A stretch of DNA of 64,000 nt, taken from a phage. The position numbers and the translations under genes were made by a program. The DNA is taken from sequence record PZ445498.1. One strand, written 5' to 3'. The notes under the pieces were generated by a model. The model saw only the letters and a list, made by a program, of their open reading frames with translations, searched no databases and had not been told where the DNA came from. Positions 1,870 to 64,000 of this stretch are shown here, in pieces; position 1 is the stretch's first letter; every line of letters starts with the position of its first letter.

Positions 1870-3086
1870 TGGGTTTAAAAAGCTGGATTACTGAAAAGCT
1901 AAATCCGGGTCAACGTATTATAAGAGACATGGAACCAGTTAGTCATCGCACTAACCGTAAGCCATTTACCACTGGACAAGCCTACAGTAAGATTGAGATT
2001 CTCAACCGAACTGCTAACATGGTTATCGATAGTGCGGCGGAGTGTTCTTATACTGTCGGAGATAAATATAATATTGTCACGTACGCTAACGGCGTCAAGG
2101 CAAAGACTCTAGACACTCTCTTAAATGTACGACCTAATCCATTCATGGATATAAGCACATTCCGTAGACTTGTAGTCACTGATCTACTTTTTGAGGGTTG
2201 TGCATACATCTATTGGGATGGCACAGCACTTTACCATGTCCCTGCTGCACTAATGCAAGTAGAGGCAGATGCCAATAAGTTTATCAAAAAATTCATATTT
2301 AATAACCAGATAGACTATCGCGTAGATGAGATTATCTTTATAAAGGATAACAGTTACGTGTGTGGCACAAACTCCCAAATTTCTGGACAATCTCGTGTTG
2401 CTACAGTTATTGACTCTCTTGAGAAGCGTTCTAAAATGCTTAACTTTAAAGAGAAGTTCCTCGATAACGGCACTGTGATTGGTCTTATTCTTGAGACGGA
2501 TGAAATCCTGAACAAGAAATTGCGTGAGCGTAAACAAGAAGAATTACAACTCGATTATAATCCTAGTACGGGTCAGTCTACTGTCCTGATTCTAGATGGT
2601 GGTATGAAAGCAAAACCGTACTCCCAAATATCCTCTTTTAAAGATCTAGACTTCAAGGAAGATATCGAAGGATTTAATAAATCCATCTGTCTTGCCTTTG
2701 GTGTTCCGCAAGTGTTACTTGATGGTGGTAATAATGCTAACATTCGACCAAACATCGAATTGTTCTATTACATGACTATCATTCCTATGCTGAACAAGCT
2801 GACTAGTTCTCTTACTTTCTTCTTTGGCTACAAGGTTACTCCTAATACTAAGGAAGTGGCTGCACTGACGCCAGATAAAGAAGCTGAGGCTAAACATTTA
2901 ACCTCTTTGGTTAATAACGGTATCATGACTGGTAACGAAGCTCGTGAAGAGCTTAACCTTGAACCTTTAGATGATGAGCAGATGAATAAGATTCGTATTC
3001 CTGCTAACATTGCTGGTTCTGCAACAGGTGTATCTGGTCAAGAAGGTGGTAGACCGCAAGGCACTGCCGATGGGGATAAAGAATGA
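1869..3086 (+). CDS. portal protein (pb7-like)
   Basis: 405-aa ORF immediately after terminase and HNH genes; size and position match T5 portal; stop overlaps next start (ATGA). Confidence 0.8.
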   Translation: MGLKSWITEKLNPGQRIIRDMEPVSHRTNRKPFTTGQAYSKIEILNRTANMVIDSAAECSYTVGDKYNIVTYANGVKAKTLDTLLNVRPNPFMDISTFRRLVVTDLLFEGCAYIYWDGTALYHVPAALMQVEADANKFIKKFIFNNQIDYRVDEIIFIKDNSYVCGTNSQISGQSRVATVIDSLEKRSKMLNFKEKFLDNGTVIGLILETDEILNKKLRERKQEELQLDYNPSTGQSTVLILDGGMKAKPYSQISSFKDLDFKEDIEGFNKSICLAFGVPQVLLDGGNNANIRPNIELFYYMTIIPMLNKLTSSLTFFFGYKVTPNTKEVAALTPDKEAEAKHLTSLVNNGIMTGNEAREELNLEPLDDEQMNKIRIPANIAGSATGVSGQEGGRPQGTADGDKE

Positions 3087-37559: not shown

Positions 37560-37586
37560 ATTTCTTCCTTATCAATTTATATAAAT

Positions 37587-37615
37587 ATTATAGCAAGTAT
37601 TTAAGCATTTAGCAA
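37587..37615 (-). promoter_or_regulatory. early promoter inside the ligase inter-subunit spacer
   Basis: Reverse complement TTGCTA-N17-TATAAT followed by ATTTATATAAATTGATAAGGAAG leader. Confidence 0.6.
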
Positions 37616-38733: not shown

Positions 38734-38941
38734 CTGCGATTTCCATTTTGAGTTCTTTACTATACTGCGCAGCCATACCAGCTAAATCAGCAGCTTCTTT
38801 CAACCACGCATCTTTGTACGCTTTCTGGTTTGGAGTGCCGATACTATCCTGGTAATTGATTCTTGCTATGGAGAGCAAATTAAGTTTTGCTTGAATCTTT
38901 GGAAGTGTTATTATCATTGCCATAATTGATCCTCTCATCAA
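38723..38941 (-). CDS. hypothetical protein
   Basis: 72-aa ORF directly downstream of an early promoter. Confidence 0.35.
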   Translation of the reverse strand: MMRGSIMAMIITLPKIQAKLNLLSIARINYQDSIGTPNQKAYKDAWLKEAADLAGMAAQYSKELKMEIADDE

Positions 38942-38952
38942 TTTATATAAAT

Positions 38953-38981
38953 ATTATATATGAAAACTGAGTCGAAAGCAA
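38953..38981 (-). promoter_or_regulatory. early sigma70-type promoter (minus strand)
   Basis: Reverse complement TTGCTT-N17-TATAAT followed by ATTTATATAAATTGATGAGAG. Confidence 0.65.
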
Positions 38982-41164: not shown

Positions 41165-41196
41165 ATTTAAAACTCCTCTCTCAAATTTATGAATCT

Positions 41197-41225
41197 ATTA
41201 TACAGAAAATTTTTGCAAGATGCAA
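41197..41225 (-). promoter_or_regulatory. early sigma70-type promoter (minus strand)
   Basis: Reverse complement TTGCAT-N17-TATAAT followed by AGATTCATAAATTTGAGAGAGGAG. Confidence 0.55.
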
Positions 41226-48020: not shown

Positions 48021-48048
48021 AGCTTTCTCCTCTCAAATTTATAAATCA

Positions 48049-48077
48049 ATTATACATAAGTTTTAGCTCGAAAGCAA
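48049..48077 (-). promoter_or_regulatory. early sigma70-type promoter (minus strand)
   Basis: Reverse complement TTGCTT-N17-TATAAT followed by TGATTTATAAATTTGAGAGGAG. Confidence 0.65.
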
Positions 48078-50242: not shown

Positions 50243-50271
50243 GTTGCTTTCTCCCGTATATATTGGTATAA
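50243..50271 (+). promoter_or_regulatory. early promoter upstream of phoH
   Basis: TTGCTT-N17-TATAAT. Confidence 0.6.
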
Positions 50272-50345
50272 TATATTTGTAAGTTGATAAACAAGATCTT
50301 TTTGTTGATCCTCTGTTAGCGAAGTACACTATAGGAGTGTTATTT

Positions 50346-60947: not shown

Positions 60948-60976
60948 TTGCTTTCAGCTCCAAAATTCTGTATAAT
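60948..60976 (+). promoter_or_regulatory. early promoter
   Basis: TTGCTTTCAG...TTCTGTATAAT then ATATTCATAAATTTGAGAGAACAA; matches the architecture I recall for T5 early promoters. Confidence 0.7.
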
Positions 60977-61016
60977 ATATTCATAAATTTGAGAGAACAA
61001 CAAAAGGAAAATAATT

Positions 61017-62273: not shown

Positions 62274-62302
62274 TTGCTAATTAGTTTAGTTTTCTATATA
62301 AT
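62274..62302 (+). promoter_or_regulatory. early promoter
   Basis: TTGCTA-N17-TATAAT followed by AAATTGATGAGA. Confidence 0.65.
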
Positions 62303-62332
62303 ATATTTTTAAATTGATGAGACGAGGCTATT

Positions 62333-62655: not shown

Positions 62656-63105
62656 ATGAAGGCAGCTTTGCTTTTAATAGCTGCCCTAACCTATAGCTTC
62701 AATAGTCATGCGACCTACGACTCAAAGCAGATTGATTGCATTGCAAAAAATATCTACTTCGAAGCACGAGGTGAGGGCACTAAAGGAATGATCGCAGTTG
62801 CACAGGTTACTAAAAACCGTGTTAACTCTGGTACTTTTCCTGATTCTTACTGTAAAGTAGTATATCAGTCTAACCAGTTCTCTTGGGTGGCCAAGAGACC
62901 AAAAGTTGATAAAACCGATGAGGCTTGGCAAGTTGCTAAGAATTTAGCTAGAGTGATATACTACGTTGATTTACCACAAGATCCAACACATGGAGCGTTA
63001 TACTTCCATAGTGGTAAAGATAAACCGTACTGGACAAAGAAGTTTAAGAAAACAACGAAGATTCAAGGCCATACGTTTTACAAGCCTGTGGTTAAGAAAA
63101 CTTAA
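62656..63105 (+). CDS. SleB-like cell wall hydrolase with N-terminal signal peptide
   Basis: Start at ATG 62656 (MKAALLLIAALTYSFNSHA signal-like); Hydrolase_2 pattern NIYFEARGE...AVAQVTKNR...GALYFHS. Confidence 0.6.
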   Translation: MKAALLLIAALTYSFNSHATYDSKQIDCIAKNIYFEARGEGTKGMIAVAQVTKNRVNSGTFPDSYCKVVYQSNQFSWVAKRPKVDKTDEAWQVAKNLARVIYYVDLPQDPTHGALYFHSGKDKPYWTKKFKKTTKIQGHTFYKPVVKKT

Positions 63106-63113
63106 AAAATTCG

Positions 63114-63142
63114 ATTGCTTAAAGCCTTAAATTTCTGTATAA
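63114..63142 (+). promoter_or_regulatory. early promoter
   Basis: TTGCTT-N17-TATAAT followed by AACTGTATAAATTGATGAGAGG. Confidence 0.65.
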
Positions 63143-63154
63143 TAACTGTATAAA

Positions 63155-63346
63155 TTGATGAGAGGAAAGCGAACAATGAAAACCTTAGTAATTATTGGTG
63201 TTAACACTCACGGTATTCGTACTACGAAAACAGTTAAAACTACTAACGTTGCTGAAATTACTACAAATCCTAAGAAGTTTGATTTCGCCAAAGTCTCAGC
63301 AGTTATGACAGAACAATCTTTTAACCAAGCACTGGGAATTAAATAA
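63155..63346 (+). CDS. hypothetical protein
   Basis: 63-aa ORF. Confidence 0.4.
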   Translation: MMRGKRTMKTLVIIGVNTHGIRTTKTVKTTNVAEITTNPKKFDFAKVSAVMTEQSFNQALGIK

Positions 63347-63789
63347 TGGAAGAGAATATTCTAGATGTTTTGCGTAGGGCTTTGCAGGAATCCAAGTTTA
63401 ATGGTTCTGATAAAGAAGTAGCTAAAAGCTACCAGACCATAATCGGAGATCTTCAGCGTGTTGATAAAGACTTCATTACTTCTGAACAGTTTGTATCTTA
63501 TCTAAAAGCTCAACTGAAAAGCATTAATCAGACGAAAGCTAAACTTCACGGTCAAGACCTTGATAATTATAGCTTGCAGTCTGCTCAGTATGAATATATA
63601 CTGAACAAATGGTTACAGCAGTATCTGCCGCCTCAGTTATCTGATTCTGAGATTCGCAAATACTTTGCAGAATTAGTTAAGTTGAATCCTGGGATTACAA
63701 AAGGTATGCTGATGAAAGCGATTAAGGAAGAGTTTCCTGGTCGTTACGACGGTGGCATTGCTGCTCAGGTTGCTGGCGAATTTAATTAA
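63346..63789 (+). CDS. GatB/YqeY-domain-like protein
   Basis: 147 aa; C-terminal GITKGMLMKAIKEEFPGRYDGGIAAQVAGEF resembles the YqeY-family C-terminal motif. Confidence 0.45.
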   Translation: MEENILDVLRRALQESKFNGSDKEVAKSYQTIIGDLQRVDKDFITSEQFVSYLKAQLKSINQTKAKLHGQDLDNYSLQSAQYEYILNKWLQQYLPPQLSDSEIRKYFAELVKLNPGITKGMLMKAIKEEFPGRYDGGIAAQVAGEFN

Positions 63790-63797
63790 AAATTGAT

Positions 63798-63826
63798 TTG
63801 CTAAACGCCTCAAAATTCTGTATAAT
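63798..63826 (+). promoter_or_regulatory. early promoter followed by at least 170 nt with no ORF
   Basis: TTGCTA-N17-TATAAT followed by AGATTCATAAATTAGAGAACAG; no start codon with Shine-Dalgarno before the window end. Confidence 0.6.
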
Positions 63827-64000
63827 AGATTCATAAATTAGAGAACAGCGAGCCGATTACGCTGAGTGAGTTTAGTGATTCCTACTAGGATAGCTATTCC
63901 ACTGAATAGAGTCGGTGAGTTTAGAATGATCACCTGTTAGAGTTCCGAGTCCAGTCCGGTATATCCGGCCAAGTGACTAGAGTAACGAATATAGGTTCGA

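What the first reader, a model, noticed from the sequence alone, without database searches (positions are those of the whole stretch)
63798..64000. Strong early promoter followed by non-coding sequence running off the window end
The TTGCTA-N17-TATAAT promoter at 63798-63826 is followed by at least 170 nt with no Shine-Dalgarno/start combination. The sequence is hairpin-rich (CCGGTATATCCGG) and the last bases, ATAGGTTCGA, resemble the 5' half of a tRNA T-arm (GGTTCGAATCC) cut by the window edge. T5-like phages carry a tRNA cluster, so this may be its first transcript, but I cannot see a complete cloverleaf inside the window.
Basis: partly seen in the sequence, partly recalled or inferred. Interest (0 to 1): 0.45.

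Follow-up and report, generated by a model that had tools for sequence, protein, structure and literature searches.

The report
Promoter and start of phage RNAX
The window ends with a strong T5-type early promoter and the first 168 bases of the phage's copy of "RNAX", a roughly 1-kb structured non-coding RNA that T5's reference genome already lists as a stable RNA of unknown function and that runs up to a tRNA-Arg gene; it is not a truncated tRNA.

Summary
TTGCTA-N17-TATAAT at 63798-63826 is one of nine T5-type early promoters in the window (none in shuffles), and no plausible gene follows it.

The "T-arm" reading is wrong. The 98%-identical phage SLAM_phiST45 is identical over the last 168 nt of the window, and there the sequence continues GGTTCGAGACTTC. 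ARAGORN and Rfam find no tRNA at that point.

In that relative, about 1010 nt of G+C-rich DNA (about 0.49, flanks 0.36-0.39) with no conserved ORF follow the promoter. This stretch ends exactly at tRNA-Arg(UCU).

T5's RefSeq record (NC_005859) and phage 5 (AJ604531) annotate the same interval as promoter P16-17, then rnaX ("RNAX, stable RNA with unknown functions"), then tRNA-Arg. So the entity is already known, but only by name. I found no Rfam family and no paper on it.

Comparing 34 distinct copies (634-1290 nt), all from T5-like phages, shows a modular RNA with helices supported by compensatory changes. The 5' end is paired from +1. The 3' domain is conserved and ends in a 17-bp hairpin. 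Most relatives carry an embedded tRNA-like element, which this phage has replaced with a plain hairpin.

The window holds only the variable 5' domain, which T5 itself lacks. Function remains unknown. The closest analogues are GOLLD and ROOL.

The parts
63346..63789 (+). Upstream gene, given for context only. It encodes a 147-aa YqeY-like protein, annotated in relatives as 'tRNA amidotransferase', 'YqeY domain' or 'exonuclease'. Its stop codon lies 8 nt before the -35 box.
   Evidence: ORF. Weak Pfam YqeY match of 24.9 bits, below the cut-off of 27. Annotations in relatives.
63798..63839 (+). T5-type sigma-70 early promoter, the ortholog of T5 'P 16-17'. -35 TTGCTA is at 63798-63803, -10 TATAAT is at 63821-63826, and the conserved downstream box AGATTCATAAATT follows.
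   Evidence: 0 mismatches; 9 copies in the window against 0 in shuffles. T5 and phage 5 annotate the homologous sequence as promoter P16-17.
63833..63833 (+). Inferred transcription start: the A that lies 7 nt after the -10 box. T5 RefSeq starts rnaX 7 nt further downstream, which corresponds to window 63840.
   Evidence: Inferred from the spacing and from my own knowledge of T5 promoter PN25, where transcription starts at the A of TTCATAAAT. The T5 promoter feature spans 75 nt, consistent with -55 to +20 around this base. It has not been mapped experimentally here.
63833..64000 (+). First 168 nt of the RNAX ortholog, which is about 1010 nt in this phage class. This stretch belongs to the variable 5' domain (D1) and is cut by the window end.
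   Evidence: 100% identical to nt 1-168 of the SLAM_phiST45 interval, L001 4832-5842. That interval is syntenic with the annotated rnaX of T5 and phage 5. It has no ORF and no Rfam hit.
63833..63845 (+). 5' strand of stem P1, AUAAAUUAGAGAA. Its partner, UUCUCUAAUUUAU, lies about 215 nt downstream and outside the window (L001 5046-5058).
   Evidence: The minimum-energy fold of the whole domain closes with this stem. All 13 pairs are Watson-Crick. There are compensatory changes in L012, L048, L008 and L024, and pairing is 85% against 42-60% in shifted registers.
63846..63864 (+). Hairpin P2, CAGCG-AGCCGAUUA-CGCUG, the most conserved element of the 5' domain.
   Evidence: Conserved in all copies that have the domain. 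In the Pectobacterium phage it reads CAGCA...UGCUG, a G-C to A-U compensatory change.
63865..63903 (+). Variable hairpin P3. Other lineages carry a different hairpin at the same position.
63904..63913 (+). Conserved junction GAAUAGAGUC. Its AGAGU probably pairs with the ACUCU next to the 3' strand of P1.
   Evidence: Nearly invariant columns. The pairing is inferred by eye and was not tested formally.
63914..63934 (+). Hairpin P4, GGUGA-GUUUAGAAUGA-UCACC.
   Evidence: Minimum-energy fold. Shared with bastian and the Sugarland-type copies.
63956..63968 (+).
   Evidence: The Sugarland-type copies have CCGG-AUA-CCGG at the same place.

Best explanation
Window 63798-64000 holds two things. The first is the ortholog of T5 early promoter P16-17. 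The second is the first 168 nt of the ortholog of T5 gene rnaX (RNAX).

RNAX is a non-coding, G+C-enriched RNA of about 1010 nt in this phage class and 634-1290 nt across T5-like phages. It fills the whole interval between the promoter and tRNA-Arg(UCU).

Proposed mechanism, which is inferred rather than shown:
- Host RNA polymerase starts at about 63833 early in infection and transcribes RNAX, tRNA-Arg and the downstream gene or genes up to the terminator that T5 annotates there.
- RNase P cuts at the 5' end of tRNA-Arg, which releases RNAX with a defined 3' end.
- The 5' end is paired from nucleotide +1 in stem P1. The 3' end sits 5 nt after a conserved 17-bp hairpin. Both ends are therefore shielded from 5'-end-dependent and 3'-exonucleolytic decay, so the RNA accumulates as a stable species.

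The RNA is a string of domains, each closed by its own helix:
- a variable 5' domain D1, the part seen in the window, which T5 lacks;
- a second variable domain;
- a conserved core that in most relatives carries a tRNA-like element with a non-canonical anticodon loop, replaced in this phage by a plain hairpin on the same stem;
- a conserved 3' domain containing the palindromic loop GUCAUGAC, present in every copy examined.

The cellular function is unknown. My best guess is a structural or scaffold RNA of the kind that phages encode beside tRNA islands.
For: Identity:
- The window matches SLAM_phiST45 at 98.1% over 63000-64000, and 63833-64000 is 100% identical to the start of the unannotated gap there.
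- That gap (L001 4789-5842) lies between the YqeY-like gene and tRNA-Arg.
- T5 RefSeq annotates the syntenic interval as promoter P16-17, misc_RNA rnaX 'stable RNA with unknown functions' (719 nt) and tRNA-Arg. Phage 5 does the same, with 785 nt.
- The 3' block of L001 is about 80% identical to T5 and scores 205 bits with a covariance model that scores T5 at 173 bits.

Non-coding nature:
- G+C is 0.47-0.50 against 0.33-0.42 in the flanks.
- No ORF is shared between classes.

Structure:
- Core block: 27 pairs, 88.9% of cells paired against 36-46% with slid partners. Ten pairs have changes on both sides, against 0-3 in the controls, and 0 of 500 shuffles reach the observed value.
- 3' block: 30 pairs in 7 helices, 98.8% paired against 27-47%. 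Nine pairs have changes on both sides, against 0-2, and 0 of 500 shuffles reach it.
- Terminal hairpin: 17 pairs, with compensatory changes in Eos and Sugarland.
- P1.

Distribution:
- 524 phage records match.
- Motif scans of IMG/VR, JGI metagenomes and GTDB genomes return only T5-like genomes or chance hits that fail the model.
Against: - Nothing here shows that the RNA exists or is stable. That rests on a one-line GenBank note, and I found no paper behind it.
- RNase P release and end protection are inferences from anatomy.
- In the Sugarland-type phages and in L009 and L020, ORFs rather than the tRNA follow the terminal hairpin, so the 3' end cannot be made the same way everywhere.
- The window's own 168 nt belong to an accessory domain that T5 lacks. 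They fold no better than shuffles on their own.
- The helices were derived from the same sequences they were tested on. The sequences represent only about 8 independent lineages, which inflates the shuffle statistics.
- Sequence beyond 64000 is taken from a relative, not from this phage.
Confidence: 0.8

Rival explanations
1. The interval is only a long 5' leader or spacer of the tRNA-Arg precursor, made of decaying tRNA genes. It would have no function of its own and would be degraded after RNase P cleavage.
For: Most relatives carry a tRNA-like element inside the interval that passes Rfam's tRNA threshold (33-38 bits). Annotators call it a pseudo-tRNA, tRNA-OTHER or tRNA-Sec. Length and module content vary widely, from 634 to 1290 nt, and whole domains are missing in T5. 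T5-like phages gain and lose tRNA genes.
Against: Helices that are not tRNA-like keep pairing through compensatory changes. The tRNA-like element itself shows compensatory changes in its T, D and acceptor stems, not decay. The 3' domain and several 9-12-nt motifs survive across subfamilies in which the surrounding sequence no longer aligns. Where the tRNA-like element is lost, the stem beneath it is rebuilt with a different sequence.
Confidence: 0.12
2. One reading: a tRNA gene, the first of the cluster, begins near the window end, with GGTTCGA as its T-loop.
For: GGTTCGA matches the T-loop consensus. With thresholds lowered to 80%, ARAGORN reports a 'tRNA-???' with a 2-nt anticodon at L001 4877-4962.
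Against: The continuation is GGTTCGAGACTTC, not GGTTCGAATCC. ARAGORN at default settings and the Rfam tRNA model at E up to 10 find nothing there. The relaxed ARAGORN run gives comparable calls inside protein-coding genes of the same locus, so that hit is noise.
Confidence: 0.02
3. The interval works at the DNA level, for example as a transcription-primed replication origin or a packaging or recombination site. The promoter would serve that role rather than making a functional RNA.
For: A strong promoter followed by a long non-coding, compositionally distinct stretch is also the anatomy of some transcription-activated origins. This comparison rests on my own knowledge of ColE1, T7 and T4 origins. 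A homing HNH endonuclease gene has inserted in the locus in some relatives.
Against: Strand-specific compensatory changes that include G-U pairs point to selection on RNA, not on duplex DNA. No repeated protein-binding sites or A+T-rich unwinding element were seen. The T5 annotators list it as an RNA.
Confidence: 0.03
4. The interval encodes one or more small proteins. Several genome records do annotate hypothetical proteins inside it.
For: Records for fp01, SelmaRatti, Sugarland and the K7 recombinants annotate 45-106-aa ORFs inside the interval.
Against: No ORF is conserved between classes. The recurrent 45-codon ORF starts with GTG inside the tRNA-like element and has no ribosome-binding site. 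Indels between classes are not in multiples of three.
Confidence: 0.02

Closest known systems
T5 rnaX (RNAX, locus tag T5s08, NC_005859.1 40848-41566) and rnaX of Salmonella phage 5 (AJ604531.1 12898-13682)
   Same: Same promoter (P16-17), same neighbours (YqeY-like gene upstream, tRNA-Arg(UCU) immediately downstream) and same strand. The P1 stem, core block, 3' domain and terminal hairpin are homologous.
   Different: This phage's copy is about 1010 nt, against 719 and 785 nt. It has a 5' domain of about 200 nt that T5 lacks (phage 5 has a shorter version) and an extra second domain. It has replaced the embedded tRNA-like element with a plain hairpin. No record of this phage class annotates it.
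GOLLD and ROOL large ornate RNAs (Rfam families; cryo-EM nanocages, PMC12286853)
   Same: They are encoded by phages and prophages, often next to tRNA islands, and are roughly 0.6-0.8 kb or longer. GOLLD has a conserved 3' region and a variable 5' region, and sometimes carries tRNAs in its linker. Their function is unknown. RNAX shares every one of these contextual traits.
   Different: No Rfam family matched any RNAX copy in permissive scans (E up to 10; up to 1); I did not confirm that the library includes GOLLD and ROOL. So there is no evidence of homology. Oligomerisation of RNAX is untested. RNAX is confined to T5-like phages of enterobacteria.
MALAT1/mascRNA and NEAT1/menRNA, long ncRNAs whose 3' ends are made by RNase P cutting at a downstream tRNA-like structure (PMC8457004, PMC9777231, abstracts only)
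   Same: A long non-coding RNA abuts a tRNA-shaped element, so tRNA-processing enzymes can define its 3' end without a terminator.
   Different: Those are eukaryotic nuclear RNAs stabilised by a triple helix. Here the downstream element is a genuine tRNA-Arg, and the protection would come from a simple hairpin. The processing step has not been shown for RNAX.
The other T5 'stable RNAs of unknown function' (RNAI, RNAIII, RNAIV, RNA1, RNA2, RNA2H, RNA3), and T4 species 1 and 2 RNAs (rnaC, rnaD) in the T4 tRNA cluster (the T4 RNAs from my own knowledge)
   Same: They are non-tRNA stable RNAs embedded in a phage tRNA region. Some are described as tRNA-like, and their function is unknown.
   Different: They are 73-172 nt, while RNAX is 4-10 times longer. 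BLAST finds no meaningful similarity between RNAX and the rest of the T5 tRNA region: one 25-nt match at E = 0.01.

Membership tests
T5 rnaX (RNAX) | Lies between promoter P16-17 (just downstream of the YqeY-like gene) and tRNA-Arg(UCU), on the same strand | tested here: met
   The promoter and the YqeY-like gene are in the window. The tRNA-Arg lies 1010 nt downstream in the near-identical relatives. The T5 and phage 5 annotations are. The downstream part is seen only in relatives.
T5 rnaX (RNAX) | Sequence homology to the annotated rnaX | tested here: met
   Full-length L001 against T5: promoter plus P1, a core segment of about 40 nt, and about 350 nt of the 3' domain at 79-89%. Covariance model R1 scores 205 bits for L001 and 173 bits for T5. 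For the window's own 168 nt, homology extends to phage-5-type copies (97% over 36 nt; 78% over 124 nt). It does not extend to T5, which lacks this domain.
T5 rnaX (RNAX) | Non-coding | tested here: met
   No conserved ORF and no ribosome-binding site paired with a start codon.
T5 rnaX (RNAX) | Accumulates as a stable RNA in infected cells | not testable with these tools
   The only support is the GenBank note. No paper was found.
tRNA | Cloverleaf detectable by ARAGORN or the Rfam tRNA model at or across the window end | tested here: not met
   The relaxed ARAGORN hit is noise.
T5-type sigma-70 early promoter | -35 and -10 hexamers with a 17-nt spacer, plus the conserved downstream box ATTCATAAATT | tested here: met
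   The ortholog is annotated as a promoter in T5. Promoter activity was not tested.
GOLLD / ROOL | Match to the Rfam covariance models | tested here: not met
   No Rfam family matched in permissive scans of the window end, L001 and seven diverse relatives. I assumed, but did not check, that the library includes GOLLD and ROOL.
GOLLD / ROOL | Phage-encoded, adjacent to a tRNA island, several hundred nt long, with many covarying helices | tested here: met
   Context. Size. Covariation. The description of the families comes from PMC12286853.
GOLLD / ROOL | Self-assembles into RNA-only multimers | not testable with these tools
   The only hint is the 8-nt palindrome GUCAUGAC in a hairpin loop, present in 34 of 34 distinct copies. 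About 0.7 such palindromes are expected by chance in 170 nt, so only its invariance is notable.

The most novel reading that the evidence does not exclude
RNAX may be a previously unrecognised class of large ornate phage RNA, an enterobacterial counterpart of GOLLD and ROOL. It would self-associate through its invariant palindromic loop or loops (GUCAUGAC, and UCGCGA in most copies). It would act with or on tRNAs or tRNA-binding factors during T5 infection, for example as a cage, a scaffold, or a decoy for tRNA-targeting host defences. Because T5 and E. coli are genetically tractable, this would be the first such RNA whose function could be dissected directly.
Probability: 0.15. Interest if true: 0.75.

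Novelty: already known. Interest (0 to 1): 0.45.

Why it matters
As a gene call the finding is ordinary. It is the start of a gene that T5's reference annotation has listed under the name rnaX (locus tag T5s08).

What deserves attention is how little is attached to that name. RNAX is a 0.6-1.3-kb RNA driven by one of the strongest classes of E. coli-recognised promoters. It is present in all 524 matching T5-like phage records, and many of its helices are supported by covariation. Yet it has no Rfam family, is left unannotated or mis-annotated as small ORFs or pseudo-tRNAs in nearly all deposited genomes, and has no function assigned.

Large structured RNAs beside phage tRNA islands, such as GOLLD and ROOL, are a current open problem. 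RNAX offers a candidate in a classical model phage.

In practical terms, annotation pipelines should stop calling ORFs and 'tRNA-Sec' or 'tRNA-OTHER' genes in this interval.

Tried and rejected
- **tRNA at the window edge.** ARAGORN at default and relaxed settings and the Rfam tRNA model were run. This reading is rejected.
- **Any Rfam family, at permissive thresholds.** The only hits were true tRNAs, the embedded tRNA-like element in relatives, and chance matches such as Atu_C9 and SNORA2 inside the upstream gene on the minus strand.
- **Coding potential.** Rejected.
- **Paralogy with the other T5 stable RNAs, or repeats elsewhere in the window.** None found.
- **Similarity to E. coli DNA, as a test of host mimicry.** None at E up to 0.01.
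- **Homologues outside T5-like phages.** Three motif patterns were scanned against IMG/VR, one against JGI metagenomes and one against GTDB genomes. Hits in L047, L052, L053 and L055 lie in dense coding-looking sequence with no other RNAX motif (read by eye). The seven MAG hits are about the number expected by chance and fail model R1.
- **CsrB-like GGA-motif sponge.** I counted about 15 GGA motifs by eye in 1 kb, which is about the random expectation. The idea was dropped.
- **MAFFT Q-INS-i structural alignment.** Not installed.
- **RNAalifold on MAFFT alignments of the whole RNA.** It recovered only a few helices, because variable modules throw the alignment out of register. I therefore tested well-aligned blocks separately.
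- **Model R1.** It finds the Sugarland-type copies only weakly (15-17 bits) and misses the Pectobacterium phage, so it did not add deep covariation.
- **Literature searches for RNAX, T5 stable RNAs and T5 transcriptomics.** Nothing on this RNA was found.

Full report
**1. What is in the window**

The last 1 kb of the window is 98.1% identical to Salmonella phage SLAM_phiST45 and 95-97% identical to many other Epseptimavirus genomes (family Demerecviridae, T5-like). The gene order is a cell-wall hydrolase, a DUF7616 protein and a YqeY-like protein.

Eight bases after the YqeY-like stop codon comes TTGCTA-N17-TATAAT, at 63798-63826. Simple hexamer scoring does not distinguish this site from chance: 10 sites scoring at least 9 of 12 were found, against 7.6 expected. 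The extended T5 promoter architecture does distinguish it. The 42-nt pattern TTGCT-N18-TATAATANATTCATAAATT matches 63798-63839 with no mismatch. It occurs nine times in the window at up to 3 mismatches and never in 100 shuffles.

No plausible ORF follows the promoter on the + strand. ARAGORN finds no tRNA anywhere in the window, and Rfam finds nothing at the window end.

**2. What lies beyond the edge**

Window 63833-64000 is 100% identical to L001 4832-4999 of SLAM_phiST45, so that record is a fair proxy for the continuation.

The terminal GGTTCGA continues as GGTTCGAGACTTCTTG, not as a T-loop. Neither ARAGORN nor the Rfam tRNA model (E up to 10) sees a tRNA there. A hit from ARAGORN with relaxed thresholds is of the same quality as hits inside protein-coding genes.

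Instead, the promoter is followed by 1010 nt that no record of this phage class annotates. This stretch has G+C of 0.47-0.50, against 0.33-0.42 in the flanks. It has no ORF with a ribosome-binding site. It ends exactly at the first base of tRNA-Arg(UCU).

**3. It already has a name**

The T5 RefSeq record NC_005859.1 annotates the syntenic interval as promoter 'P 16-17', then misc_RNA rnaX, then tRNA-Arg. The rnaX entry reads 'RNAX, stable RNA with unknown functions' and covers 719 nt. The record 'Bacteriophage 5 tRNA gene region' (AJ604531) begins with the same promoter and a 785-nt rnaX.

T5 lists seven other short 'stable RNAs' in its tRNA region. RNAX is by far the longest and shares no meaningful sequence with them.

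The other T5 record, AY587007, leaves the interval blank except for a pseudo-tRNA. Other genomes call small hypothetical proteins, 'tRNA-OTHER', 'tRNA-Sec' or nothing at all.

I found no paper on RNAX in the held library and no Rfam family. The evidence that the RNA is actually stable is therefore a database note that I could not trace.

**4. Comparative anatomy**

The interval matches 524 phage records. From the fetched loci I extracted 34 distinct copies, 634-1290 nt long. They are mosaics of modules.

*(a) Stem P1.* The RNA's first 13 nt, AUAAAUUAGAGAA, pair with UUCUCUAAUUUAU.
- In this phage class the two strands enclose a 5' domain of about 200 nt. In T5 they enclose only a short loop (about 5 nt).
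- Pairs are kept through double changes in the Pectobacterium phages (three positions), in Eos, and in one T5-class variant (two positions).
- Pairing is 85% in register, against 42-60% in shifted registers.
- The whole domain folds with z = -3.55.

*(b) A second closed domain.* It is present in this class and in the Sugarland, Eos and bastian types, and absent from Tequintavirus. Its closing helix reads CGAUGG/CCAUCG here and UGGUGG/CCACCA in Sugarland (read).

*(c) The core.*
- It begins with an almost invariant block, GUGGGGUG...AACACUGCC.
- In most relatives a tRNA-like element follows. This element passes the Rfam tRNA threshold (33-38 bits) and has a canonical T-arm, but its anticodon loop is non-canonical and not conserved. 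In Sugarland that arm is 14 nt longer.
- In the window's phage class the element is replaced by an unrelated hairpin. The stem beneath it is rebuilt as CCAGA/UCUGG in place of GCCGUCC/GGUCGG.

*(d) A variable linker.*

*(e) The conserved 3' domain.* It has at least seven helices nested inside a long-range GUGG/CCAC pairing. One hairpin loop carries the palindrome GUCAUGAC, which is present in 34 of 34 distinct copies.

*(f) The terminal hairpin.* This 17-bp A+U-rich hairpin sits 5 nt before the tRNA.

**5. Formal pair counts**

| Block | Pairs | Cells paired | Slid-partner controls | Pairs changed on both sides (controls) | Shuffles reaching observed |
|---|---|---|---|---|---|
| Core | 27 | 88.9% | 36-46% | 10 (0-3) | 0 of 500 |
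| 3' block | 30 | 98.8% | 27-47% | 9 (0-2) | 0 of 500 |

Two caveats apply. I derived the helices from these same sequences, and the sequences represent only about eight independent lineages.

A covariance model of the 3' block scores 170-218 bits on every Markadamsvirinae copy. It scores only 15-17 bits on the Sugarland-type copies and finds nothing in the Pectobacterium phage.

**6. Distribution**

Exact-motif scans of IMG/VR, JGI metagenomes and GTDB genomes recover only T5-like genomes and chance matches. The chance matches lie in dense coding-looking sequence (read by eye) or fail the model. There is no similarity to E. coli DNA.

**7. How it probably works**

Shown here:
- The promoter belongs to the phage's early-promoter family.
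- The interval is non-coding.
- The interval carries conserved, covarying RNA helices.
- It abuts a tRNA.

Inferred:
- Transcription starts at A63833. This rests on the spacing from the -10 box and, from my own knowledge, on the start site of T5 promoter PN25. T5's annotation places the RNA start 7 nt later.
- RNase P cleavage at tRNA-Arg creates the 3' end of RNAX.
- P1 at the 5' end and the terminal hairpin at the 3' end protect the RNA from decay, which would explain a 'stable RNA'.

The 3'-end mechanism cannot be universal. In the Sugarland-type phages and in L009 and L020, ORFs follow the hairpin, and at least one ORF in the locus is an inserted HNH endonuclease gene.

Function is unknown. 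The contextual resemblance to GOLLD and ROOL is close. Those RNAs are phage-encoded, sit next to tRNA islands and have no known function. GOLLD additionally has a conserved 3' region, a variable 5' region and tRNAs in its linker (PMC12286853). There is no model-level homology, however: no Rfam family matched.

**8. Verdict**

- The tRNA reading is wrong in detail but right about context.
- The feature is an ortholog of an already annotated but uncharacterised gene.
- The 168 nt inside the window are the variable 5' accessory domain, not the conserved heart of the RNA.

Noticed in passing
L003 (AY587007.1) 2215-2286 and 2871-2945: In the AY587007 T5 record, the tRNA features of this region sit 68 nt away from where ARAGORN and Rfam place the tRNAs. 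tRNA-Arg is annotated at locus 2939-3013 but found at 2871-2945. The pseudo-tRNA is annotated at 2283-2354 but found at 2215-2286. As annotated, the tRNA-Arg overlaps the next CDS.
   Followed up: partly
L009 1277-1756 and 2343-2852; L043; L020: Some Epseptimavirus genomes carry ORFs inserted into the RNAX locus. A 159-aa HNH endonuclease (Pfam HNH_3, E = 3e-9) sits directly after the promoter in place of the 5' domains. A second ORF of 169 aa, with no Pfam match, sits between the terminal hairpin and tRNA-Arg. These look like homing-endonuclease insertions that remodel the RNA gene.
   Followed up: partly
L003 2667-2750 (T5 RNAX): T5 alone has an insertion of about 80 nt that duplicates the AGUCACCUUGAC-UAAACUGGAA hairpin region of the 3' domain. 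Close relatives such as SelmaRatti, fp01 and Kenya-K36 lack it.
   Followed up: no
window 63346-63789: The gene just upstream of RNAX is named inconsistently across records: 'tRNA amidotransferase', 'recombination-related exonuclease' or 'YqeY domain protein'. Pfam gives only a sub-threshold YqeY match (24.9 bits against a cut-off of 27). A YqeY or GatB-tail-like, possibly tRNA-binding, protein next to an RNA that carries a tRNA-like element may be worth testing as a partner. Sugarland-type phages have RNAX without this neighbour.
   Followed up: partly
window 37574-37615, 38940-38981, 41184-41225, 48036-48077 (- strand); 50244-50285, 60948-60989, 62274-62315, 63115-63156 (+ strand): There are eight further copies of the extended T5 early-promoter architecture, which includes the conserved initially transcribed box ATTCATAAATT. 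They switch strand between about 48 and 50 kb, which marks a divergent early-transcription boundary in the window.
   Followed up: no
L001 5610-5632 and 5667-5678 (beyond the window; equivalent positions in all relatives): Two conserved hairpin loops of the RNAX 3' domain contain palindromes. UCGCGA is in 25 of 34 copies, with CGCGCG in T5. GUCAUGAC is in 34 of 34 copies. Palindromic loops can form kissing dimers. This is a hint only, because palindromes of this length are not rare by chance.
   Followed up: partly
L012 / L048 (Pectobacterium phages) about 1550-1660: In the Mccorquodalevirinae copies, the promoter-proximal AUAAAUUAAAG pairs with CUUUAAUUUAU about 100 nt downstream and encloses an extra domain. 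A second P1-like stem (UAGUAAAGAA/UUCUUUACUA) then closes the domain that is homologous to the one in the window. This amounts to a duplication of the P1 principle.
   Followed up: no
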